DNA from: Candidatus Bathycorpusculum hydrogenotrophicum
GTDB lineage: Archaea; Thermoproteota; Bathyarchaeia; Bathyarchaeales; Bathycorpusculaceae
DNA length: 64,000 nucleotides
Direction of reading: 5' to 3'
Assembly (NCBI GenBank): GCA_009783705.1
Contig: WRCX01000004.1
Location: 1,827 to 65,826, forward strand
Shown here: positions 553 through 64,000 of the stretch, piece after piece
How positions within the stretch are numbered: the first letter of the stretch is position 1
Layout: each line of letters starts with the position of its first letter
Program-made: the position numbers and the translations under genes
The notes under the pieces: generated by a model
Databases searched by the model: none
What the model was told of the DNA's origin: nothing
Seen by the model: the letters and a program-made list of their open reading frames with translations, nothing else

Positions 553-2480
553 TGCAGCTACCCGCAGAAGTCCAAGAATACTTTCCCTACGGCAAGGCCC
601 GTCCCCACCAAGACGAATTTATAACAACTGTTAACAAAGCCCTAAATGACCGTAAAAGCGTACTCATCGAGGGTAGCAATGGTTTGGGCAAAACAATCTC
701 TGCTCTCTCTGCAGTGCTCCCCATTGCAGTCAAAAAAGACCTCAAGGTTCTCTATGTCGCAAGAACCCACCGCCAGCATGACCGAGTCATCGAAGAACTC
801 CGAGCTATATACAAACAACATCCCATAACAGGCGTATCTATCCGTGGACGCAACGAAATGTGTCTTAACGTATTTGCCTCCAAGGGTGCATCTGACTCAC
901 GCTCACTTATGGAAGTCTGCGAGATGCTCAAATCCAAAGGCAGATGTCCCTACCACACAAACGTACAAAACCGCTCTTGGGAGTACCTTCAAATGCAGCA
1001 AGAAATCTCCAGACGCCCCTATATGGGCTCTGAAATTCTGCGTTCCTGCAAAAAAAAGGAACTCTGTGCCTACGACCTAGTTAAGGGCGCAATATCTGAG
1101 GCACGGGTTATCGCACTAAGCTATCTCTATGTCTTTGACCCAATAATCCGAACAGCTTTTCTAAAAAACCTAGAAACTGAGCTCTCAAGGATAATTCTAG
1201 TTGTAGATGAAGCTCACAATCTGCCCGAAACCGCCATAGACATCTCTGGTAGCCAGCTGACCTCATTTGTCATGAAAGCCGCCGAAACAGAAGCCGAAAG
1301 ATACGACTACCGCGACATAGAACAATTCATCCACTACTTCAGAAACGAAATAGAAACCCTAACCGATAAAGTTCACAAAGAAGAAATCATTCCCGCAAGC
1401 CGCATAAAAAGCATAATCGAAAAAGGCGGCATTCAAAATCCACGTTCTTTCTTTGAACACATCCACGAAACCGGGTTGGTAATAAGAAAAAGCATGCTTG
1501 CTGAAGGCAGAAACCCTCGTTCCTACATTAACTCTATGGGCGAATACCTGCAGAAATGGATCGAAACAGCAGATGATGACTCCTACATAAATGTGGCCAG
1601 CCGCTACTTTACCAAAGAAGGCAACAAAACCGGTAAACTCGAAATCGCTGCCCTTGATCCCTCCAAGATAACTGCACCCGTTTTCAGCTCCACTTATGCT
1701 AATGTAATCATGTCAGGTACCCTCCAACCCCTAGAAGCCTACGCCCGCATCACCCATCTCTCACAAGACACCGTGCAATTCTTAGCTCCCTCACCATTTC
1801 CAAAGGAGCACATTTTCTCCGCTGTTTGTAGCGGAGTTACCACCTCAATGGAGAATCGCACACCAAAAATGTACCAGACCATGATTGAACGCATAAACGA
1901 GGTCGTTAACAGCACCCCAACTAACACAGGGATTTTTGCCGCCAGCTTCCAAGTACTCAATGCCTTACTCTCTGAGGGTCTTGAGGAACAGTTACTAAAA
2001 CCACTGTATTGTGAAAAAAGCGGCATGACATCTAAAGCCAACGAAAAATTAGTGCAAGATTTCAAAGTATGCGGCGACCGGGGCGGAGCAGTCTTTTTAG
2101 GCGTGCAAGGTGGTCGTACCTCAGAGGGCGTAGATTTCCCCGGCAACCAAATGAACTCAGTATTGGTTGTAGGTGTACCCTATGCTGAGCCAACCCCACG
2201 CGTAAAAGCACAAATCGACTACTACGAACGATGCTTCCCAGGCCGAGGCCGAGAATACGGCTACACATTACCCGCGATGAAAAAATCCACCCAAGCCGCA
2301 GGCCGACCCATTCGCACCCTAGATGACAAAGGCGCCATAATCTTTCTCGACTACCGCTTTGGATCAGCATACTGCAAAAGCTTCATACCCAGCTGGATAA
2401 CAAACGGCATGAAAACCCTGCCCGATAAACCCGGCATATTGGGTGATGAAGTCAGAGCTTTCTTTTCCTCTCAATCCTGA
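552..2480 (+). CDS. xpd: XPD/Rad3/DinG-family Fe-S SF2 helicase
   Basis: Walker A GSNGLGKT, Fe-S Cys residues (MCLN, EVCEM, RCPY, LCAY), DEAH, MSGTL, SEGVDF, QAAGRPIR. Confidence 0.92.
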   Translation: MQLPAEVQEYFPYGKARPHQDEFITTVNKALNDRKSVLIEGSNGLGKTISALSAVLPIAVKKDLKVLYVARTHRQHDRVIEELRAIYKQHPITGVSIRGRNEMCLNVFASKGASDSRSLMEVCEMLKSKGRCPYHTNVQNRSWEYLQMQQEISRRPYMGSEILRSCKKKELCAYDLVKGAISEARVIALSYLYVFDPIIRTAFLKNLETELSRIILVVDEAHNLPETAIDISGSQLTSFVMKAAETEAERYDYRDIEQFIHYFRNEIETLTDKVHKEEIIPASRIKSIIEKGGIQNPRSFFEHIHETGLVIRKSMLAEGRNPRSYINSMGEYLQKWIETADDDSYINVASRYFTKEGNKTGKLEIAALDPSKITAPVFSSTYANVIMSGTLQPLEAYARITHLSQDTVQFLAPSPFPKEHIFSAVCSGVTTSMENRTPKMYQTMIERINEVVNSTPTNTGIFAASFQVLNALLSEGLEEQLLKPLYCEKSGMTSKANEKLVQDFKVCGDRGGAVFLGVQGGRTSEGVDFPGNQMNSVLVVGVPYAEPTPRVKAQIDYYERCFPGRGREYGYTLPAMKKSTQAAGRPIRTLDDKGAIIFLDYRFGSAYCKSFIPSWITNGMKTLPDKPGILGDEVRAFFSSQS

Positions 2481-3559
2481 ATCTCTTGAAGCTTACGGTT
2501 TAACAAGACCTTGCCGATGATGAGTCGATGAGGTGTTGTGGTAACTGCCGTTTGAACCTTCAAAGTCCGTCTCTCAACATTAATTGCACGCAAAACTCCA
2601 ATACCTAAAAACCTGTTTCCCCAGCCATATAACCCTATAAGTACCCCTTTCTCAGGATCCTGCTTTTTAGGTACAGCATTTCGAGGCTCAACTGTAACTT
2701 GACTAAGTGGATAACATTGCAATTTTGATTTACGCAGATACTTAGCATAGGTCATTTCACGAAGAATCCGCCGTTTCTCTGATGTTCTTTGACTCAACGC
2801 AGGTGAAGGTGTCGCTGTTAATACACCCCCGCCTCCCAGATAAGACATCAACGTCGTAAGCTCATCTTTTATCTGAACCCCAACAACAATATTGGGCTTT
2901 AATTCTTTAATCAAACTCAGCTTATAACGTATAGCATCAATACCTGATACAAAGCCATCTGTGTTGATTATTATAACATCTGCTTGGCGCTGGTTGGCTT
3001 CTCCCATAATGGCCGCTAAGCCCTCAAGCGTTTTGGCAACTGCTGTTGGAGGCGAAGTGACGCCTATAAAGTATCCGTTTTGATACCGTAAATCATAGAG
3101 TTCAACGACAGGTTTAGTGACTATTGCATAGCCAACAGTTGCGCAGGGACCAATATCAGACTGACCCAAATCTCCATCAAGAATTGCGACTCTACGTTTG
3201 GCTTCAACCATCTTGTTTAACATATAGGTGCATAAACTGCTCTTTCCCGAATCCGATGCACCTAAAACTAAAATTACAATAGGCTTTTTCTCAAGTCCCA
3301 ACACGATTTGGATGGGTTTATTCCACGATTCTGGAACCGTATTGCCCTCCATCTCCTGCACCGTTGCGTTTGCACCCAACACAACATCAAAAACCGAGGG
3401 TTCAGATGCAAAAAATGGCATACGTTTACCTTCCCTAACAACAGTCCGCTGTAGTTCATTAAAGGGGCACCCGAACACTTCTGCTTTTCCCGAAATCAGC
3501 TCAACTGATGCTGGACCATCCACTATGAGCGTATTATTGGGTTGTATGGCTTGCCGCAA
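2471..3559 (-). CDS. Clp1/Grc3-family polynucleotide 5'-kinase
   Basis: GASDSGKS P-loop, DGDLGQSDIGP, INTDG motif. Confidence 0.85.
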   Translation of the reverse strand: MRQAIQPNNTLIVDGPASVELISGKAEVFGCPFNELQRTVVREGKRMPFFASEPSVFDVVLGANATVQEMEGNTVPESWNKPIQIVLGLEKKPIVILVLGASDSGKSSLCTYMLNKMVEAKRRVAILDGDLGQSDIGPCATVGYAIVTKPVVELYDLRYQNGYFIGVTSPPTAVAKTLEGLAAIMGEANQRQADVIIINTDGFVSGIDAIRYKLSLIKELKPNIVVGVQIKDELTTLMSYLGGGGVLTATPSPALSQRTSEKRRILREMTYAKYLRKSKLQCYPLSQVTVEPRNAVPKKQDPEKGVLIGLYGWGNRFLGIGVLRAINVERRTLKVQTAVTTTPHRLIIGKVLLNRKLQEIQD

Positions 3560-56741: not shown

Positions 56742-57049
56742 CCCTCTCTCTCCCTTTCTTTCTAAATACTCTCAAACGCTTTAATGGACACAATAAAATT
56801 CTGTCTGCGCGCCTAAGATAATTGTCATATTACTTGTAATTACGTGATAAAAATGTTGTGACAAGCGCATGTATGATATATTTTTGACCTAAACACAATA
56901 CCTTCGTTTTATATCTGACCATCTGGCAATCAGGTAGCTTGTGTTTCTCAGGGTTTTCCCTTTGATAAAAGTGCCAAACGATGACTTGCCATAACAAAAC
57001 CTATGACCAACCAATAATATATTTATGTGTGCATCACCTAGACTCATCT

Positions 57050-57125
57050 GCTGGGGTGGCCGAATGGCTTAGGCGGTAGCCTGCAGAGCTGCTCTATATG
57101 GGTTCAATTCCCATCCCCAGCTCCA
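57050..57125 (+). tRNA. tRNA-Cys(GCA), CCA encoded
   Basis: Acceptor GCTGGGG/CCCCAGC, U73 discriminator, anticodon arm GTAGC-CTGCAGA-GCTGC, T arm ATGGG-TTCAATT-CCCAT. Confidence 0.95.
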
Positions 57126-57203
57126 AATTAATCCTTTTACGAATCTTCCTCTTGTCCTGAGTGCTCGGTCTTTCTGTAGGTGCTATTAAGAAGGCGAGTG
57201 GTT

Positions 57204-57617
57204 TTAATTGGTTTTTTCAAAGTTAGTGAGTATTTGTTTAACTGTAACTATTTTGATACCTCTAAAACTATTTAATGCCAGTAGATGTTTGTCTCCGGAA
57301 ACAATAATGTCTACTTTTCCATCATAGGCCGTCTCAATAATCATGTCATCTTTAGGATCTTCTTTAACAAGCTTAAATTTTGAAACTACGTCCACTATTT
57401 CAGCTGTTTGCATCAAAGCTAAGATAATTCGATGGCGTTCCTCTTCAGTAGTTTTGAATTTTGGTCTTTGCAAAACAAGGTCAAACTCTTTTAGAATCGT
57501 CTCGGAGATAACTAAAGTGAATTCTTTACAGAGGCCTTTCTTTAAGAGTTCTCTTGATTTGCCGTCAGATATTATGGCGCTAACTAAAACGTTGGTGTCA
57601 AACACCACTCGAAACAT
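57204..57617 (-). CDS. PIN-domain (VapC-like, PIN_3) toxin
   Basis: VVFDTNVLVSA, EDPKDD, IVSGDKHLL. Confidence 0.92.
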   Translation of the reverse strand: MFRVVFDTNVLVSAIISDGKSRELLKKGLCKEFTLVISETILKEFDLVLQRPKFKTTEEERHRIILALMQTAEIVDVVSKFKLVKEDPKDDMIIETAYDGKVDIIVSGDKHLLALNSFRGIKIVTVKQILTNFEKTN

Positions 57618-57627
57618 CGTTTATCGT

Positions 57628-57897
57628 CTACTTTCTGGTTTCTTTGATTTCTTTTTGTATTTCTGCATTGGATAGTTTTAGTTCTTTTTTGTCCATTAGT
57701 TTGAATATGTCTTCCCATTCTTTTTTTAGGTCTGGGAGTTGTAGTTTTTTCATTATAATGGTGTCGCCTTTTCCGTAGACTAGCAATTTGGTTTTTGGTT
57801 TTATTTCTAGTTCTTCGCGGATGGATTTGGGAATGACTACTTGTCCTTTCTCGCTCATTATGGTGACTTCTAGTTCTTCAGTCATAGCAATCATCAT
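57628..57897 (-). CDS. AbrB/MazE/SpoVT-family antitoxin
   Basis: SEKGQVVIPKSIREEL. Confidence 0.9.
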   Translation of the reverse strand: MMIAMTEELEVTIMSEKGQVVIPKSIREELEIKPKTKLLVYGKGDTIIMKKLQLPDLKKEWEDIFKLMDKKELKLSNAEIQKEIKETRK

Positions 57898-58509
57898 TGT
57901 AAGAATATTTTACTTTCCTATTATTAATCTTTTTCAGGGCTAATGGCTTGATCTGTTGACAACTTTTGTGTTGATTATGGCTTTATGGAAAAGTTATGCG
58001 GCAAATTTGAGTTTGCCGTTTGTTCCACCCGACGGGTTCTGTTTATGCGTTCGTGAATTGATCTTCTATTCTTCGTGGTGTTCGCCTTGGGATCTATTGG
58101 GTATAGCTGTTTTTTCATAAACAACTGCTGATATATCGGTAATTGACGTTATTTAACTATACTTTACCGATATATGAAAACAGTTTTTGAGTTTGCGTGA
58201 GTTTTACTGCTGTGACATTTACGTTTGAGACGGCATTTATCTCATCAAATGAACTGGGTATTGGTAAGATAAATGATAAGATAAAGAAACGGCTCTTGAT
58301 GTGAACATAGTTGTGTTGCTGACACTGATGACGCTAATTACACTGTTTCTCTGTTATAAGAAAAGAGGCAAGATGATGAAATTTATGGCTAAATAAACTG
58401 TTTTGTGTTATGTGTGGTTAGTTATTGTTTTGTGTATTGAAGAGTGCTGGTTTTACGTAACGCTGGCCTTGGTGTTTTGTTGAGTTTTGAATTAATAAAC
58501 TGGTGCTGG

Positions 58510-58584
58510 ATGTTGTTTAGGGGAAAAAGGGGTTGAGTGGATGATTTCTCTGTGGTCTGTTGATGCATTTCCCATCCCCTGCTC
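58510..58584 (+). repeat. att-like junction 1: 62-bp arm + degenerate tRNA-Cys 3' end
   Basis: ATGTTGTTTAGGGGAAAAAGGGGTTGAGTGGATGATTTCTCTGTGGTCTGTTGATGCATTTC followed by CCATCCCCTGCTC. Confidence 0.9.
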
Positions 58585-58790
58585 TTTATTGTTGTACCTG
58601 CATCTCTTCCTTATGTCCAGTTTGGGTGTAAATTAACCGTTTTGGAATTAAATCGACAAGTGATATTTAACTCATAAATCATAGTTTTTATGTCACTTTT
58701 CATTATCGTATGGTTGAGCGTAATTGTGTGGATTACTTTAAATAATTTTGTGTTATGTAGTATTATGTCTGTAGTTGGAAGGATGTTTCA

Positions 58791-59027
58791 ATGGTAAAAA
58801 ACATCATAGAATTAGGTGAAGAGGAAAACAGAGTAATTAATATAGTTAAGGCAAAGTATGGGTTTAAGGATAAGAGCCAAGCTTTAAGCGTTATTATCAA
58901 ACGTTATGAAGAATCGGAGCTTGAGCCTCAGCTAAGACCTGAGTTTGTAGCAGAAATCGGAGAGACAATTAAGCGAGGCAAGTTTGTTAAGGTTAAAGAT
59001 TTCGAAGAAGAATATGGGCTAAAGTGA
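58791..59027 (+). CDS. DUF2683-like antitoxin
   Basis: NRVINIVKAKYGFKDKSQA...EPQLRPEF; upstream of a RelE-type toxin. Confidence 0.75.
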   Translation: MVKNIIELGEEENRVINIVKAKYGFKDKSQALSVIIKRYEESELEPQLRPEFVAEIGETIKRGKFVKVKDFEEEYGLK

Positions 59028-59034
59028 CTGTTGC

Positions 59035-59295
59035 TTGTATAGCCTTGAGATTGAAGAACAAGTTTCTAAAACCTTTCACAAACTTTTAAAAAAAGACAGA
59101 TCTCAATTAGAGGCTATAAACAAGAAGATACAGCAGATTTTATCTGATCCGTATCAATTTAAACCATTAAAACACCCCTTAGACGGTTTTCGCAGAACAC
59201 ACATTGGTTCTTTTGTTCTCATATATCGTGTAACCGAAAATCCACCAACGGTTCAAATAGTGCAGTACACACATCACGATAAAGCCTATCTCTAA
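59035..59295 (+). CDS. RelE/ParE-family toxin
   Basis: KKIQQILSDP...FKPL...RRTHIGSFVLIY...HHDKAY. Confidence 0.88.
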   Translation: MYSLEIEEQVSKTFHKLLKKDRSQLEAINKKIQQILSDPYQFKPLKHPLDGFRRTHIGSFVLIYRVTENPPTVQIVQYTHHDKAYL

Positions 59296-59444
59296 ACGCT
59301 TCAGAAGAGAATCGCAATTTTTCTATGTTGTTTGAAGATTTTGGTTGTTAGAAAGCTCGTGAATACAATGGTGCTAACTGGGGCAAATCGGTGGTATGTG
59401 CTATTATTATTGGCTAGATGTCGGTAATTGGTAAGGGTGCGTTT

Positions 59445-59518
59445 ATGTTGTTTAGGGGAAAAAGGGGTTGAGTGGATGATTTCTCTGTGGTCTGTTGATG
59501 CATTTCTCATCCCGGCTC
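59445..59518 (+). repeat. att-like junction 2
   Basis: Identical 62-bp arm (59445-59506), then TCATCCCGGCTC. Confidence 0.9.
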
Positions 59519-59633
59519 TTTATTGTTGTACCTGCATCTCTTCTTCATGTCCGGTCTTATTGGGAGTTTCTAAAACCTTCGTAAGGGCACAAACTATTTT
59601 AGGTTTTAAGTAGCACTACTTTTGGGTTTAACA

Positions 59634-59881
59634 TTGACTGAGAGTATAACTTTTTCGGCAGTGTTGTGGAAGGAAGGCCGATTGCAGATTGCGTGGTCTC
59701 CAGAACTGGATATATAGCTAGCCAAGGCAAAAATGTTGAGGATGCTTTGGGAAATCTGCGGGAGGCAATTGAGCTCTATCTTGAAGATGAAGATGCAAAA
59801 ATTCCAACTGACCGATCTGCCATTCTTACCACTTTGAGTGTTCAAACACATGCCCAAGCGGGAACCTCTGTCAGGCAGTAA
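59634..59881 (+). pseudogene. hicB: HicB antitoxin, frameshifted by a TA duplication at 59715-59716
   Basis: FSAVLWKEGRLQIAWSPELDI in one frame continues as ASQGKNVEDALGNLREAIELYLED in another. Confidence 0.85.
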
Positions 59882-60077
59882 AATAATCAAGGCACTTAGT
59901 AAGGCTGGGTTTCAAGTAGTGGGACAAAAAGGAAGCCATGTCCGATTAAAAAAGAAAACATTTTCGGGCATAAACATTGTAATTGTTCCGATCCACCCCG
60001 AAATCAAGAAAGGAACCTTAAGTCCATACTGCGGCAAGCTGGATTAACAGCAGAAGAAAACTCGAAAGGCTCTGTAA
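59850..60077 (+). pseudogene. hicA: HicA toxin, frameshifted near 60020
   Basis: LSKAGF...QKGSHVRLKK...VPIHPEIKKGTL; SILRQAGLT lies in a different frame. Confidence 0.85.
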
Positions 60078-60286
60078 TAGCTGAGATTTACTCGATAATT
60101 ATCTCTTGTTTTTCAGCAAAAATACGGTTCAATATTGGTTTTAGCTGAATAATTATGCCTATATTTTTAGAAATTTCGTGCGTATTTAGTTCTTGGCAAG
60201 CGCTTATCCAAAGGTTGTATGTGCATTTGATCAATGAACCTCGGGTGCATTTTTGCTGAGTTTTGAATTAAAAGTTGGTGTTTGTT

Positions 60287-60361
60287 ATGTTGTTTAGGGG
60301 AAAAAGGGGTTGAGTGGATGATTTCTCTGTGGTCTGTTGATGCATTTCTCATCCCCAGCTC
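60287..60361 (+). repeat. att-like junction 3
   Basis: Identical 62-bp arm (60287-60348), then TCATCCCCAGCTC; 12 nt are identical to the tRNA-Cys 3' end. Confidence 0.9.
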
Positions 60362-60427
60362 TTTGGTGTTGCGTGTAATGCGTTTCCTCCTGTTTCGGTT
60401 TTAAAAGGTTCCAAAACCATTAAGAAC

Positions 60428-61642
60428 ATGACAATAACAAAAACTAACCCTGTTATCCATGACTATGAGCGGGTTCTTGAGCGGAACCGCCAAAACATTA
60501 AGCCTTTACGCAATAGCGAGCTAAGTTTACAGTTTTTAGACCACTTAAGTGCCCTTGGGTTGTCAGTGGGCAGAGTAGCAAAATACGCCGCCCACCTACC
60601 TGTATTACTGCCTCTTATTGATGTAGATCTTAAAGCGTTAACGAAAACGGATGCTGAACACATAGTAGCGGCGATAAATAGCCGACCAAACAAAGCCTCC
60701 ACTAAAAGCGACAACAAACTTTTGCTACGAAAACTTGTTCAATACGCCAAAGAGGGCAGTTGCGCTAAAGGCACACCTTTGCCCTCTGAGGTAAGCTGGA
60801 TAAGTTTAGCAATAAAAGAAAAAAACCCCCGCGTAACCCCTGAAACCCTTTTGACCTCTGAGGATTTTGCGGCAATTATTCGAGCCACCCAAAATAAGCG
60901 TGATAGGGCTATGGTGTATGTGCTTTTTGAAGCGGCTTTGCGACCTGGTGAGCTTTTAACCATGACTGTAGGTAGTGTAGCGTTTAAGGATAATTATTGC
61001 CTTATCACTGCAAATGGTAAGACGGGTATTAAGCGGATTCCTTTGGTTGTTGCTTGCAAGCCCTTGCTTGAGTGGTTAGAGGATCATCCTTTTGGTGATG
61101 AGCCGTCTTCGTCTTTGTGGTGTTCACTTGCTCATAATTGTGTGGGTAAACAGTTGAGCTACATGCGTTTTCGCGATATAATTCAGCGTTTGGCTAAGCG
61201 GGCTGGTTTGAAGAGGACGGTTTGGCCGTATTTGTATCGTCATAGTTCTTTGACCGCTATGGCTAAAGTATTTACCGAGTGCCGTTTGGAGCAGTTTGCG
61301 GGTTGGAAATATGGCAGTAAGATGACAAGACGATATGTGCATTTTTCTGCTAGAGATTTAGAAGATGCAGTTTTGGAGTTGCACGGTATAAAGTCTGTTT
61401 CAAAAAACACTGGCTTGATGCAAGTCGTTGATTGCCCAAGGTGTAGCAATAAAAATCCTTTTGGAACTACAAGATGCACCACCTGTGGCATGATATTAGA
61501 CAAGGAAACCGCCTTAAGATTTGAAGAAACTCAAAGGCAAAAAGAGGGGATATTGCAGGAACAAAACATAGAGTTAAAACAACGCATAGAAAAGTTGGAG
61601 AGTTTTGTCTCCTCCCTTATTCCTACCTCTGGCAAGCTTTGA
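60428..61642 (+). CDS. Tyrosine integrase with C-terminal Zn ribbon and coiled coil
   Basis: ALRPGE (R), GKTG (K), YLYRHS, AGW, MTRRYVH (Y), CPRC...CTTCG. Confidence 0.92.
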   Translation: MTITKTNPVIHDYERVLERNRQNIKPLRNSELSLQFLDHLSALGLSVGRVAKYAAHLPVLLPLIDVDLKALTKTDAEHIVAAINSRPNKASTKSDNKLLLRKLVQYAKEGSCAKGTPLPSEVSWISLAIKEKNPRVTPETLLTSEDFAAIIRATQNKRDRAMVYVLFEAALRPGELLTMTVGSVAFKDNYCLITANGKTGIKRIPLVVACKPLLEWLEDHPFGDEPSSSLWCSLAHNCVGKQLSYMRFRDIIQRLAKRAGLKRTVWPYLYRHSSLTAMAKVFTECRLEQFAGWKYGSKMTRRYVHFSARDLEDAVLELHGIKSVSKNTGLMQVVDCPRCSNKNPFGTTRCTTCGMILDKETALRFEETQRQKEGILQEQNIELKQRIEKLESFVSSLIPTSGKL

Positions 61643-61770
61643 TTTGTTTTTCAACAAGTGCCTTTAATTCTCCAATTTCTTCTAATATTTTTTCTAAAAC
61701 CTGTTTGCTTATTGTTATTTGTTTGCTCATTGGTTATCGTAAATGGTGAAGGGCTGAATTTTTAAAACTA

Positions 61771-62376
61771 CGACATGGTTTAGGGCAATACGTGCTCCAA
61801 AAAGGCACGTTTTAATTAAAACCATGTCGCCTAAAAAAGACCACACACTATTAAGGTGTTAAGTTCGTTTAGTGCCATGCTTGGTTGAGAGTGTGTTTGT
61901 TGTGTCCTAGTTTGGGGCAAGATGGTTCCTTTTTGGGACTGTCTTGACCAAAACTAGGGATCAGCCCAATATTATAGAACACACAATATATCAATACCTA
62001 AACCTGTAAGTACAAACATCTTTTGTTGTTTTTTTGTAGTGACATAGTTAGGGCAATACGTGCTCCAAAGGGGCACGTTTTGGCTAAAGTATGTCACTAA
62101 AAAGGAAGGCTAAAGTTGTGTTAAGAAGATTAGCTTTAGCAATAGTGGGTTGGGGGTTTGTTTATGTGTAGAGCCATAGTTTGGGGAAAATGATTCCTTT
62201 TGGGGGCTGTCTTGATCAAACTAGGCTTGTCAAATATTATGGAACACATCCACGTGTTTGTTTCTAAAGGCTGTAAAAACACAAATGCTCTTACAGTAAT
62301 GTGGTTTTTGGGAGGTTGTGACCTGATTTGGGCAATACGTGTTCTTTTGGTGCACGTATTGGGCAAAACAGGTCGC
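61771..62376. repeat. ~270-bp-period array of imperfect palindromes (A-B-A-B-A)
   Basis: GGGCAATACGTG at 61783, 62051 and 62330; TAGTTTGGGG at 61908 and 62178. Confidence 0.8.
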
Positions 62377-62761
62377 GCCCTGTACACAGCCTGTAGTTTA
62401 CCAATAAAACATGAAAACTACCATACCCACCACAAACAGTTCTTTGTATTTTGAAATTGGATGGTTATGGTTTTAGGTTAAACAAGGTAGTCTGTGTGTT
62501 GTTTTGATCAAGGTATGGTTGCTATCTATGCTGTTGTTGTGTGTAGTTTTTTGTGTAGTGTGTTTTCTTTAAAGTTAGGTGTTGTTTTGGTGAGGGGTTG
62601 GTTGTGTGGGGGCGAAAAAAGGGCAGTGGGGGCGAGTATGGGCAGAGTTGGTTTGGGTGGTGGTTAGCCTTTAAATATTTGAAGCGTGCATAAACTCTTG
62701 TTCTGTTAAGAACATTCTTGCCTGTTTGGTAGCTTGTCGGCTTTAAGACGTTTCTCCATAG

Positions 62762-63086
62762 CGGGAAACCACGGGAAACAACAATTTTACACTCAGTGTA
62801 AACTCTACTTCTCACAAAACTCACTAAAAACTCCAAACGGGAAACCCTCAAAAACAACTTATTTCATCAAAAGATAGCGGGAAAAACCAACCAAACAACA
62901 AATAAACTGAAACATACGTCTTATTTGATTAAAACAGCCTAAAACAAACACTAAAAAAGCAAGAAAAATAGAGTGAGACGGGAAACAAAAAGGGGAAACC
63001 CGGGAAACAGGCGGGAAACACACAACACAGCACGGGAAACACAAGACAAACGAGAAACAATAAAAACGCAAAATAGATAGGGAAAA
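62762..63086 (+). repeat. Cluster of CGGGAAAC octamers (7 exact + 4 variants)
   Basis: Exact copies at 62762, 62772, 62838, 62979, 63001, 63012 and 63033. Confidence 0.8.
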
Positions 63087-63123
63087 TGTTAACAAGTTAA
63101 TTGATGTTGAAAGGGCGTTTTGC

Positions 63124-63993
63124 CTATAGTTTTTTGTTTTCCAGTTTCTTTAGGGTATCCACACTTTTGTTGCGAAGCATAGCTGTCAACTGTTCTCTTG
63201 CCAAGCAATTAAGCTCCTCAACACGTTCCGACTGTGGCACACCCTTGCTTATGTAGAGTGCATTTACGTTTTCAAGATTCGCCAAAACAAGCAACTGCTC
63301 AATAGACGCATAATCCCTCATATTCCCAGTCTTATCCATATTATCTGCTCGCCACTGCGCTGCAGTAACTCCAAACAAAGCCACATTTAAAACGTCTGCC
63401 TCATCAGCATAAACAAACGCCTTCTGCTTAGCCGTAAGCATCTTTGGCACCAAATTATCTTTAATCGCATCGGTATGCACTCTGTAATTAATCTTTGACA
63501 AAATACGTCCAACATTCCACTCTAAAGAAACTCGTCTACTCTCATCAGACTTTAACCGCTGATAATCCTTAACAACATACAATTCAAACTCTGCTGAAAT
63601 CCATGATGCAAACTTGAAAGCAATATCCTTATGCGCAAACACTCCACCCCCACGCCCAACTTTAACCGAAATTCCAACTGCGTTTGTAGTGTTGACCCAT
63701 TTTTGGGGTGAAAGGGTAAAGGCGTTTGCTCCTGCTTCATGTAAAAACCTATCGAATTCGATAGGTTTAAAACTAGGATTATACAGCTGTTCCCACAAAC
63801 CCAAATACTCAATAGTATTTCGAGCCCGCATCCAATTATTAATCACAATAAAAGCATCATCAGCATTTTTGTACTTTGCAATATCTGTTAAACTGATAAA
63901 ATCGTCATCATTGTCACCAGTGCCTTTGGTTAATACGGTTATTTCTGTTCCTTTCGCAATGATTTTACCCTTGAAAACTCTGCAATCGCCCAA
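63124..63993 (-). CDS. KilA-N domain DNA-binding protein (start may lie beyond the window)
   Basis: FISLTDIAK, NWMR...YLGLWE, GRGGGVFAHKDIAFKFASW, ADEADVLNVALFG. Confidence 0.88.
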   Translation of the reverse strand: MGDCRVFKGKIIAKGTEITVLTKGTGDNDDDFISLTDIAKYKNADDAFIVINNWMRARNTIEYLGLWEQLYNPSFKPIEFDRFLHEAGANAFTLSPQKWVNTTNAVGISVKVGRGGGVFAHKDIAFKFASWISAEFELYVVKDYQRLKSDESRRVSLEWNVGRILSKINYRVHTDAIKDNLVPKMLTAKQKAFVYADEADVLNVALFGVTAAQWRADNMDKTGNMRDYASIEQLLVLANLENVNALYISKGVPQSERVEELNCLAREQLTAMLRNKSVDTLKKLENKKL

Positions 63994-64000
63994 AATAACT

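What the first reader, a model, noticed from the sequence alone, without database searches (positions are those of the whole stretch)
58510..60361. Junctions have tyrosine-recombinase core-site geometry plus an internal direct repeat
Seen: at junction 3 the site reads CTGTTGATG-[CATTTCT]-CATCCCCAG, i.e. 9-bp inverted arms (7/9 complementary) flanking a 7-nt spacer. The tRNA supplies the right half exactly ([CAATTCC]-CATCCCCAG). About 23 nt upstream in the arm, GATGATTTCTC nearly repeats GATGCATTTCTC. Junctions 1 and 2 also share ~35 further nt downstream, and junctions 1 and 3 share TGAGTTTTGAATTA upstream. Established: lambda-type integrases act on inverted core sites around a ~7-bp overlap, helped by arm-type sites. 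Inference: this defines the crossover and a candidate accessory binding site. Caveat: the spacer differs from the tRNA spacer by 1-2 nt, which could hinder classical homology-dependent exchange.
Basis: partly seen in the sequence, partly recalled or inferred. Interest (0 to 1): 0.62.

Follow-up and report, generated by a model that had tools for sequence, protein, structure and literature searches.

The report
Attachment-site junctions of stacked archaeal mobile cassettes
The three repeats are recombination joints left when three small toxin-antitoxin modules were inserted one after another, by a site-specific integrase, into the end of a tRNA-Cys gene of a termite-gut archaeon; this is a known kind of process, seen here in an unusual miniature, cassette-like form.

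Summary
Three 85-112-nt repeats (58510, 59445, 60287) each read [56-nt arm, 100% identical in all three] - [7-nt spacer CATTTCY] - [tRNA-Cys 3' end CATCCCCAGCTC] - [related right arm]. They are hybrid att junctions (P-O-P') in a tandem array: tRNA-Cys | VapBC | J1 | RelE/ParE pair | J2 | HicAB | J3 | integrase element.

Three sister species carry the orthologous integrase element directly at tRNA-Cys, with no toxin-antitoxin units. A metagenome contig joins two of the units (99% identical) in a different order. This bounds the crossover to about 14 nt (tRNA positions 56-69) and supports his placement.

The 9-bp inverted repeat is not significant on its own: it appears in 5-13% of shuffles, is 7/9 only at J3, and is absent from the family's other arm type. 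The upstream GATGATTTCTC lies in the best-conserved block of an arm family found across the genus, so an accessory site is plausible. A further conserved motif, CTCTTCCTCA, lies in every right arm.

It is not an integron: the integrase lacks the IntI signature and the site forms no attC-like hairpin. Verdict: a tRNA-targeting tyrosine-integrase system with integrase-less toxin-antitoxin mini-cassettes. Moderately interesting.

The parts
57050..57125 (+). tRNA-Cys(GCA), the chromosomal target; the present attL. Its 3' part from C56 (57105) onward, and the sequence downstream, belong to unit A.
   Evidence: ARAGORN; Rfam tRNA 56 bits. In L035 the same 3' segment plus unit A follows a P arm instead of the tRNA body.
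57105..57123 (+). Core 'O' in the tRNA: spacer CAATTCC (57105-57111; T-loop nt 56-60 plus T-stem 61-62) and right half CATCCCCAGCTC (57112-57123).
   Evidence: (D4). Identity with all junctions begins exactly at 57105.
57144..57151 (+). Right-arm (P') motif TCTTCCTC of unit A.
   Evidence: Alignment A4. The same motif lies at the same distance behind eight different tRNAs next to paralogous or orthologous integrases.
57204..57897 (-). Unit A cargo: VapC (PIN, 57204-57617) and VapB (AbrB/MazE-type, 57628-57897).
   Evidence: Pfam PIN_3 2e-22, MazE_antitoxin 6e-08.
58481..58494 (+). Upstream block TGAGTTTTGAATTA, shared by J1 and J3. Variants precede J4 and the X arm.
   Evidence: (D17).
58510..58621 (+). 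Junction 1: P arm of unit A (58510-58565), spacer CATTTCC (58566-58572), right core CATCCCCTGCTC (58573-58584), P' arm of unit B with TCTTCCTT (58605-58612).
58540..58550 (+). It is the local version of the conserved P-arm block. Also at 59475-59485 and 60317-60327.
58791..59295 (+). Unit B cargo: DUF2683 antitoxin-like protein (58791-59027) and RelE/ParE/YafQ toxin (59035-59295).
   Evidence: Pfam DUF2683 8e-10, ParE_toxin 5e-08; NCBIfam YafQ family 4e-18.
59445..59555 (+). Junction 2: P arm of unit B, spacer CATTTCT (59501-59507), right core with a 1-nt deletion CATCCCGGCTC (59508-59518), P' arm of unit C with TCTTCTTC (59539-59546).
59666..60047 (+). Unit C cargo: HicB-like protein (59666-59881) and HicA (59838-60047). 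By my reading of the sequence, the HicA C-terminus looks frameshifted.
   Evidence: Pfam HicA_toxin 1e-15; sequence read.
60287..60397 (+). Junction 3: P arm of unit C (60287-60342, including CTGTTGATG at 60334-60342), spacer CATTTCT (60343-60349), right core CATCCCCAGCTC (60350-60361), P' arm of the integrase element with GTTTCCTC (60382-60389).
   Evidence: From 60343 rightwards it is orthologous (88-93% nt identity) to the attL of G184, G306 and G081, where it directly follows tRNA-Cys.
60399..60408 (+). TTTTAAAAGG, a likely TATA box of the integrase gene. It is conserved upstream of the integrase gene across the family.
   Evidence: sequence; inference from archaeal promoter consensus.
60428..61642 (+). 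Tyrosine integrase, 404 aa. Catalytic R, K, R, W and Y align with P. abyssi XerA; the first His is replaced by Tyr. It has a C-terminal CxxC...CxxC extension.
   Evidence: Pfam Phage_integrase 2e-16; PDB 4a8e alignment; three paralogues in the genome.

Best explanation
J1, J2 and J3 are hybrid attachment sites of the form P-O-P'. They were produced by serial site-specific integration into the 3' end of tRNA-Cys in a Bathyarchaeon of the 'Ca. Bathycorpusculum' genus.

The integrase-bearing element arrived first, giving tRNA-O-P'c-int, the state still seen in sister species. Three integrase-less mini-elements then integrated one after another into the regenerated tRNA site, each pushing the older ones downstream. 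Each mini-element carries one toxin-antitoxin pair and a full attP-like site: a 56-nt left arm P, the core O, and a right arm P'. The order of arrival was HicAB, then RelE/ParE, then VapBC.

Each junction therefore joins the right end (P) of one unit to the core and left end (P') of the next. Strand exchange takes place in the part of the core that matches tRNA positions 56 to about 69. The most likely site is a 6-8-bp overlap equal or close to the 7-nt spacer CAWTTCY, which covers the 3' half of the T-loop and the first two T-stem bases. The integrase would bind CATCCCCAG on the right and the end of the P arm (..TGATG) on the left.

Two conserved blocks are candidate cis-acting accessory sites: the P-arm block around GATGATTTCTC and the P' motif CTCTTCCTCA, 33 nt after the spacer in the four window junctions. 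The mini-units have no recombinase, so they must be moved in trans. Two flanking junctions can excise a unit as a circle carrying one P-O-P' site, which makes the units behave like cassettes.

Shown: the anatomy, the occupied-versus-unoccupied comparison, the alternative module order, and the breakpoint positions. Inferred: the order of events, the exact cleavage points, which protein binds which block, and present-day activity.
For: (1) Anatomy. tRNA-Cys is followed by three units. Each ends in the same 56-nt arm followed by a 17/19 copy of the tRNA 3' end. An intact tyrosine integrase starts 67 nt after J3.

(2) Sister species. G184, G306 and G081 have the orthologous integrase element (88-93% nt identity to 60343-63652) directly abutting tRNA-Cys, with no toxin-antitoxin units. 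The homology starts exactly at the spacer.

(3) Alternative order. Metagenome contig L035 carries unit A (99.3% over 1499 nt) and unit D (99.6% over 786 nt) joined to each other by a complete P-CATTTCT-CATCCCCAGCTC-P'd junction. There unit A is preceded by another P arm instead of the tRNA. In G000 the order is tRNA-A-B-C-Int-D. The only sequence shared by the alternative partners at the D junction is about 16 nt. This argues against assembly chimeras and against homologous recombination.

(4) Breakpoints. Unit A's left end is joined at GGGTT|CAATTCC (tRNA) or at TGATG|CAATTCC (L035). Unit D's left end is joined at AAAATCG|CATCCCC or at CATTTCT|CATCCCC. The A-B and A-D junctions first differ at spacer position 7 and then at CATCCCC[T/A]. 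In G133 the P arm ends at GATGCAACTC|A.

(5) The integrase family. It sits immediately 3' of tRNA-Cys, Leu, Thr, Glu, Asp, Asn or Gly. In these loci a conserved C(T/C)CTTCCTCA motif lies 17-30 nt after the tRNA end. The toxin-antitoxin units keep this motif although they have no integrase gene.

(6) Arm homologues. Homologous P arms lie next to displaced tRNA-Cys or tRNA-Ala 3' ends, 0.7-10 kb downstream of those tRNAs, in other species.
Against: The 9-bp inverted repeat is not significant, is degraded in J1 and J2, and is absent from X-type arms.

The spacer is not identical between presumed partners. Classical lambda-, Cre- or Flp-type exchange would disfavour this.

The right core carries a substitution in J1 and a deletion in J2, while the P arm is 100% conserved. 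The inner junctions may therefore be decaying scars rather than active sites.

The integrase element's own right end carries a different (X-type) arm, not the P arm. It is thus not shown that this integrase acts on P arms.

Related P-type sequences are dispersed through genomes of the genus, sometimes among genes that look like housekeeping genes. Not every copy need be a mobile-element end.
Confidence: 0.8

Rival explanations
1. The P arm is a dispersed genomic repeat with another job, such as a regulatory site, a small RNA or a MITE-like element. It only happens to lie beside tRNA-like fragments, and the junction 'geometry' is incidental.
For: A sequence model of the arm hits many places in genomes of the genus, up to about 35 per genome. 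In G203 and G247 some copies flank ORFs that I read from their sequence as TBP-, Alba- and aRF1-like; no family search was run on them. Many copies lack a recognisable tRNA 3' end. The central block is a palindrome in many copies (GGAGATATCTCC, ATGGCGATATCGCCAT).
Against: Copies within a locus are co-oriented, with each other and with the nearby tRNA. Similarity always ends inside the T-loop/T-stem segment, as att arms would. Unit A keeps its P arm in two different contexts. There is no Rfam match, no consensus fold and no excess folding energy. Orientation relative to the neighbouring genes is not consistent.
Confidence: 0.1
2. The array and its variants arose by homologous recombination or unequal crossing-over between the 60-110-nt repeats, not by site-specific exchange.
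For: J1-J3 share 62 identical nt, enough for occasional RadA-dependent exchange. Such exchange among tandem integrated elements has been proposed for archaea (review PMC8371274, read).
Against: The alternative partners at unit D's left end (X arm versus P arm) share only about 16 nt. The tRNA and the P arm share nothing to the left of the spacer, yet are joined to the same unit A at one exact base. The sister-species attL aligns to J3 exactly from the spacer onward.
Confidence: 0.06
3. It is an integron-like platform. The repeats act as attC-type sites that are recombined as folded single strands next to their integrase.
For: The integrase is adjacent to an array of short cassettes, each ending in a conserved site. 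Toxin-antitoxin cargo is typical of chromosomal integrons. Integrons have been reported in Archaea (bioRxiv 10.1101/2022.02.06.479319).
Against: The integron-integrase model TIGR02249 scores 16.6 bits against a cut-off of 265. Single-strand folding of either strand is no better than shuffles (z = 0.3 and 0.2). A test for co-variation between the arm's 5' block and the T-loop segment was negative (p = 0.37). Units hold two genes, in either orientation. The site is a tRNA 3' end, as in classical double-strand att sites.
Confidence: 0.03

Closest known systems
tRNA-targeting tyrosine integrases of integrative elements and prophages (lambda-type att logic; crossover in a tRNA loop flanked by its stem; Williams 2002, from my own knowledge; archaeal cases reviewed in PMC8371274)
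   Same: A tyrosine recombinase lies next to the tRNA. The element supplies a copy of the tRNA 3' end. Displaced copies mark element ends. The crossover segment coincides with a 7-nt tRNA loop region. Long arms carry conserved blocks.
   Different: The left core half-site in these P arms is not a T-stem copy. The spacers of the partners are not identical. The elements in the array are only about 0.9-1.4 kb and lack a recombinase.
CIMEs and accretion with ICEs/IMEs in Streptococcus (reviewed in PMC5704250, PMC7563491)
   Same: Units flanked by att sites but lacking integrase and transfer genes are stacked in tandem with an integrase-bearing element at a tRNA or other conserved site. They can in principle be mobilised by the neighbour's integrase.
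   Different: This host is an archaeon. The units are minimal, with one toxin-antitoxin pair each. Their left-hand arm (P) differs from the integrase element's own arm (X). No conjugation genes are present.
Tycheposons and tRNA-anchored islands of Prochlorococcus (bioRxiv 10.1101/2020.12.28.424599)
   Same: Repeated integration at the same tRNA pushes older elements inward. Partial tRNAs are scattered through the island. Cargo modules behave as plug-in cassettes.
   Different: Tycheposons carry their own recombinase and replication module. Here most units carry none.
Chromosomal integrons with toxin-antitoxin cassettes (Vibrio superintegron, from my own knowledge; integrons in Archaea, 10.1101/2022.02.06.479319)
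   Same: An array of short cassettes lies next to a tyrosine recombinase. The cassette-end repeats are highly similar. The cargo is toxin-antitoxin pairs.
   Different: There is no IntI signature, no attC hairpin and no attI. The sites are tRNA-derived double-strand att sites. Orientation and gene number per unit are not integron-like.
Tandem integrated elements in archaea (Thaumarchaeota iMGE survey PMC6563490; Thermococcales/Methanococcales, PMC8371274)
   Same: The same att site is re-used by successive elements, giving arrays with internal att copies.
   Different: The arrays described there consist of full-size, integrase-bearing elements or casposons, not one-operon integrase-less cassettes. 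This integrase is not of the SSV type, whose gene is split on integration.

Membership tests
Tyrosine-integrase att sites at a tRNA gene (integrative element, tandem array) | Tyrosine recombinase with its catalytic residues encoded beside the site | tested here: met
   Pfam PF00589 2e-16. R, K, R, W and Y align with XerA 4a8e; the first His is replaced by Tyr.
Tyrosine-integrase att sites at a tRNA gene (integrative element, tandem array) | Direct repeats equal to the tRNA 3' end delimit the inserted DNA | tested here: met
   A 19-nt block (17/19 identical) at 57105, 58566, 59501 and 60343, plus one at C4:70167.
Tyrosine-integrase att sites at a tRNA gene (integrative element, tandem array) | Related genomes show the site without the insert, or with other inserts, with breakpoints at the repeat | tested here: met
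   G184, G306 and G081 have tRNA-Cys directly followed by the integrase element. L035 has unit A joined to unit D.
Tyrosine-integrase att sites at a tRNA gene (integrative element, tandem array) | Inverted core-type half-sites around a 6-8-bp overlap | tested here: inconclusive
   7/9 at J3 only. It occurs in 5-12.5% of shuffles. Only the inner GATG/CATC is kept in J1-J3. It is absent in X arms.
Tyrosine-integrase att sites at a tRNA gene (integrative element, tandem array) | Identical overlap sequence in the recombining partners | tested here: not met
   The spacers are CAATTCC (tRNA), CATTTCC, CATTTCT and AAAATCG. This means either tolerance of heterology or a shifted overlap.
Tyrosine-integrase att sites at a tRNA gene (integrative element, tandem array) | Integrase-dependent excision and integration (circles, empty sites) | not testable with these tools
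No episomal form was found in viral contigs.
Cis-mobilizable element (CIME)-type units | Flanked by att sites of a neighbouring integrative element and devoid of recombinase and transfer genes | tested here: met
   Units A, B and C hold only toxin-antitoxin genes. Their P' arms carry the family motif.
Cis-mobilizable element (CIME)-type units | Mobilised by the neighbour's integrase | not testable with these tools
   This is an inference only. The units' P arm differs from the integrase element's X arm.
Integron | IntI-type integrase with its extra domain | tested here: not met
   TIGR02249 scores 16.6 bits against a cut-off of 265.
Integron | attC sites that fold as imperfect single-strand hairpins | tested here: not met
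   z = 0.32 and 0.22 against shuffles. No consensus structure. No co-variation.
SSV-type ('suicidal') archaeal integrase | attP lies inside the integrase gene, which is split on integration | tested here: not met
   The ORF is intact at 404 aa. The att site ends 67 nt upstream of its start codon.

The most novel reading that the evidence does not exclude
The P arm defines a genus-wide recombination system. In this reading, hundreds of integrase-less gene modules of 0.5-8 kb in 'Ca. Bathycorpusculum' genomes each end in a conserved arm of about 60 nt (A-run, GGGGWTTTG, palindromic GGGTGAYATCTCC block, T-arm mimic). They are exchanged at the near-universal tRNA T-loop sequence (TTCAAATCC) by integrases acting in trans. 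This would build co-oriented cassette arrays at tRNA genes and at non-tRNA sites: a double-strand, tRNA-based functional analogue of integrons in Archaea.
Probability: 0.25. Interest if true: 0.75.

Novelty: new variant of a known kind. Interest (0 to 1): 0.5.

Why it matters
The att sites and crossover points of archaeal integrases have been mapped for very few systems, and none in Bathyarchaeia. Here natural recombinants narrow the exchange to about 14 nt of the tRNA T-arm. They also point to three conserved cis blocks that can be tested directly.

The array shows that single toxin-antitoxin operons can be packaged as minimal att-bearing cassettes and stacked at a tRNA gene by a recombinase acting in trans. 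This is a route for spreading defence and addiction modules in uncultured archaea. If the arm family found across the genus works the same way, it would be a general gene-shuffling platform comparable in effect to integrons.

The compact sites (about 110 nt) and the family's range of tRNA specificities (Cys, Leu, Thr, Glu, Asp, Asn, Gly) could also serve as genetic tools for archaea.

Tried and rejected
(1) attC-like single-strand hairpin. DNA folding of both strands of J3 gave z = 0.32 and 0.22. RNAalifold found no consensus pairs in 37 arm copies.

(2) A long-range pairing that I thought I saw, between the arm's 5' GGGGWTTTG and the T-loop/T-stem CAAWTCCCC. Cognate pairs score no better than non-cognate pairs (4.50 versus 4.42 Watson-Crick pairs of 9; permutation p = 0.37). 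It is complementarity at the consensus level only.

(3) Known RNA family. Rfam found nothing but the tRNA itself.

(4) The P arm as a degenerate tRNA or a split-tRNA half. By eye it is not supported; only positions 56-74 resemble tRNA-Cys.

(5) Exact-pattern searches for the G000-type arm. It was found only in G133 (= WQVG01000011, Ca. Bathycorpusculum acetigenerans) and in one other metagenome contig. The 2-mismatch hits in the genus were chance.

(6) Episomal forms in IMG/VR. No integrase relative and no X-arm match.

(7) Finding the island's distal attR (P-O-B'). No further tRNA-Cys fragment lies on the contig. The flank conserved in G202 and G213 maps to another contig (C10) and contains another integrase remnant.

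(8) Read-level evidence for excision.

(9) Assembly artefact. Rejected, because independent assemblies (L035 and three sister genomes) reproduce the junction halves.
Full report
**1. What is there**

The window is C4:1827-65826 of a 2.24-Mb, 107-contig genome. It belongs to the same genus as WQVG01000011, 'Candidatus Bathycorpusculum acetigenerans', a termite-gut Bathyarchaeon.

tRNA-Cys(GCA) lies at 57050-57125. Downstream of it are three short units.
- Unit A: VapC (PIN) and VapB on the minus strand, 57204-57897.
- Unit B: a DUF2683 protein and a RelE/ParE/YafQ toxin, 58791-59295.
- Unit C: a HicB-like protein and HicA, 59666-60047.

Each unit is followed by one of three repeats: J1 58510-58621, J2 59445-59555 and J3 60287-60371. 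A 404-aa tyrosine recombinase starts 67 nt after the core of J3, at 60428. Its catalytic Arg, Lys, Arg, Trp and Tyr align with XerA of Pyrococcus abyssi.

**2. Check of the observation**

Each junction reads as follows:
- a 56-nt arm (P), ATGTTGTTTAGGGGAAAAAGGGGTTGAGTGGATGATTTCTCTGTGGTCTGTTGATG, identical in all three;
- a 7-nt spacer, CATTTCC in J1 and CATTTCT in J2 and J3;
- the tRNA-like right core, CATCCCCAGCTC, which is CATCCCCTGCTC in J1 and CATCCC-GGCTC in J2;
- a right arm (P').

The tRNA reads CAATTCC-CATCCCCAGCTC at 57105-57123.

The 9-bp inverted repeat is 7/9 at J3, 6/9 at J1 and worse at J2. A repeat of that quality turns up in 5% of dinucleotide shuffles of the unit, or 12.5% if spacers of 6-8 nt are allowed. 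It carries little weight by itself. The direct repeat GATGATTTCTC / GATGCATTTCTC is rarer, at 0.6% of shuffles.

**3. What the junctions are**

The decisive evidence is comparative.

(a) Three sister species (G184, G306, G081) carry the orthologous integrase element, 88-93% identical in DNA to 60343-63652. There it directly abuts tRNA-Cys...GGGTTCAATTCCCATCCCCAGCTC|TTCTCTGTTGCGTGTAATGCGTTTCCTCC..., followed by the same TATA-like box and the integrase gene. There are no toxin-antitoxin units. Homology to G000 begins exactly at the spacer of J3. J3 is therefore that attL with the tRNA body replaced by the P arm of unit C.

(b) A metagenome contig (L035) contains unit A (99.3% over 1499 nt) and a unit D (HicAB). 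In G000, unit D lies 8 kb further on, beyond the integrase element (99.6% over 786 nt). In L035 the two are joined to each other by a complete P-CATTTCT-CATCCCCAGCTC-P'd junction. Unit A in L035 is preceded not by the tRNA but by another, slightly different, P arm.

(c) In G000, unit D's left end is joined to a different arm, which I call X...CAAACAACAAAATCG|CATCCCCAGCTC.

The same modules therefore occur in different orders, always cut and rejoined at the core. The sequence shared by the alternative partners at unit D's left end is only about 16 nt. This excludes chimeric assembly and makes homologous recombination unlikely.

The simplest history is serial integration into the regenerated tRNA site: the integrase element first, then C, then B, then A. 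Each junction is then P(left unit)-O-P'(right unit).

**4. Where the crossover is**

- Unit A's left end is joined at GGGTT|CAATTCC in G000 and at TGATG|CAATTCC in L035.
- Unit D's left end is joined at AAAATCG|CATCCCC in G000 and at CATTTCT|CATCCCC in L035. This is the right edge of the spacer.
- The A-B junction (G000) and the A-D junction (L035) are identical through GATGCATTTC. They first differ at spacer position 7, and next at CATCCCC[T/A].
- In G133 a homologous P arm ends at GATGCAACTC|A at a non-tRNA site.
- X-type arms in front of tRNA-Leu, tRNA-Thr and tRNA-Cys cores become tRNA-identical from T-loop position 57/58.

Together these bound the exchange to tRNA positions 56-69 (CAWTTCYCATCCCC). 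Joints at both edges of the 7-nt spacer are what staggered cuts with segregation of a heteroduplex overlap would give. I put the exact 7-nt register at about 50% and the 14-nt window at about 85%.

His caveat stands: the spacer is not identical between partners. Either heterology is tolerated, or the true overlap is shifted a few bases to the right.

**5. Arms and candidate accessory sites**

All right arms align, and a conserved C(T/C)CTTCCTCA lies 17-30 nt after the tRNA end. The aligned arms come from unit A behind the tRNA, J1, J2, J3, unit D, G133, and the paralogous integrases of G000 at tRNA-Leu, at tRNA-Thr and on C76. The same motif precedes integrases of this family behind eight different tRNAs in other species. 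The toxin-antitoxin units keep it although they have no integrase gene (57144, 58605, 59539, 60382). This points to a role in recombination rather than only in integrase-gene expression.

The P arm has homologues beside displaced tRNA-Cys and tRNA-Ala 3' ends in other species. Their best-conserved block, GGGTGAYATCTCC, is palindromic as GGAGATATCTCC or ATGGCGATATCGCCAT in many copies. The upstream copy is therefore a real conserved element. The downstream 'copy' overlaps the variable spacer and is not conserved.

The integrase elements' own right arm is the X type: an X-O(Thr)-P'-int junction exists in G133. That this integrase also acts on P arms is therefore an inference.

**6. What it is not**

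It is not an integron. The IntI model scores 16.6 bits against a cut-off of 265. There is no excess single-strand folding, no consensus structure and no co-variation. Units hold two genes, in either orientation.

It is not an SSV-type split integrase, because the gene is intact. It is not a known RNA family.

**7. Wider context, and limits**

A sequence model of the P arm finds many copies in genomes of the genus, up to about 35 per genome. They are often co-oriented in arrays 0.2-4 kb apart. The tRNA-like part differs from copy to copy, and there is frequently no tRNA within 10-16 kb. Some of these modules hold ORFs that I read from their sequence as housekeeping-type (TBP-, Alba- and aRF1-like); no family search was run on them. 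It is open whether all these copies are element ends. This is the basis of the 'novel case' and of the main rival explanation.

The mutated right cores of J1 and J2 suggest that the inner junctions may be decaying.

**8. Comparison and verdict**

Tandem re-use of an att site is known in archaea (PMC6563490, PMC8371274). Integrase-less att-flanked units stacked with an integrative element are known as CIMEs in streptococci (PMC5704250). tRNA-anchored islands built by repeated integration are known from Prochlorococcus tycheposons (10.1101/2020.12.28.424599).

New here are the minimal one-operon toxin-antitoxin cassettes, the two arm families, the crossover map in a Bathyarchaeon, and the possible genus-wide spread. 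I rate it a new variant of a known kind, with interest 0.5.

Noticed in passing
L005:12059-12177 (= window coordinate 68232-68350, beyond the window end); copies at G000 C11:35832-35930, C11:37642-37714, C3:189-284, C80:3551-3648, C26:18506-18576: A second, 'X-type' right-arm family of about 75 nt: TTTAGTGTTTAAATATGAACTCTCAAAGTCTAAGCCGTGATTTTGAGGAAAGGCTCCAGACACAAACAG, containing a CTCAAAGTC...GATTTTGAG hairpin. Each copy is followed by the 3' end of a tRNA (Leu, Cys or other). In G133:C74 one directly precedes O(Thr)-P'-int, so it is probably the integrase elements' own attP arm.
   Followed up: partly
genus-wide; e.g. G224:C11:739219-749840, G224:C11:974539-977956, G203:C1:191685-195134, G247:C1:1224919-1232391: Co-oriented arrays of P-arm-like sites (A-run, GGGGWTTTG, GGGTGAYATCTCC, T-arm mimic), with differing tRNA-like ends, often no tRNA gene nearby and no integrase of this family. 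There are up to about 35 copies per genome.
   Followed up: partly
L005:12897-13130 (window coordinate 69070-69303): A fourth P arm (J4) after a HicAB unit D. It is cut off at ...GATGATTTCTCTGTG and continues into sequence 87% identical to 57903-57958 (upstream of vapB). This looks like a deletion that removed a second VapBC-type unit.
   Followed up: partly
61768-62376: Nested palindromes and repeats downstream of the integrase gene (families D2, D3, I1-I4). They are conserved at 68-77% identity in the orthologous element of G184. They may be the element's origin or iterons.
   Followed up: no
63124-64000 and L005:6951-11991: The integrase element's cargo includes a KilA-N protein and a 1218-aa NACHT-LRR (STAND) NTPase, which is a likely defence gene.
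   Followed up: partly
59838-60047: HicA of unit C appears frameshifted near its C-terminus. It reads ...KKGTLSPYCGKLD*; the +1 frame gives the usual ...KSILRQAGL. This could be a pseudogene or an assembly error. It is my reading of the sequence and was not tested.
   Followed up: no
window 56742-57049 versus L005:16921-19062 (window coordinate 73094-75235): In G184 and G306 the 5' flank of tRNA-Cys is the POR operon. In G000 that operon lies at the far end of the island, in inverted orientation. The whole tRNA-plus-island segment is therefore inverted in one lineage relative to the other.
   Followed up: partly
L020:9920-14890 (G133:C11): A related element with a decayed integrase and a P arm is inserted between a membrane-protein gene and ribosomal protein P1, not at a tRNA. 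The empty site in G000 is at about C28:12700-12950. The left joint carries a tRNA-Cys-like GAGTTCAAATCCCATCCCCCGCTC. This suggests integration at a secondary site, or a rearrangement.
   Followed up: partly
L035 (reverse complement) 2319-3400: Another, unrelated tyrosine recombinase gene interrupts the extended P arm of unit D in the metagenome contig.
   Followed up: no
L059, L055, L052 (tRNA-Cys loci of G203, G210, G205); G000 C10:21104-21271: Remnants of a second integrase family (C-terminus ...KLFRKRK) lie on the opposite strand right after tRNA-Cys, with direct repeats ATAAACCCATATACT in their arm. tRNA-Cys is a hotspot for several element families in this genus.
   Followed up: no
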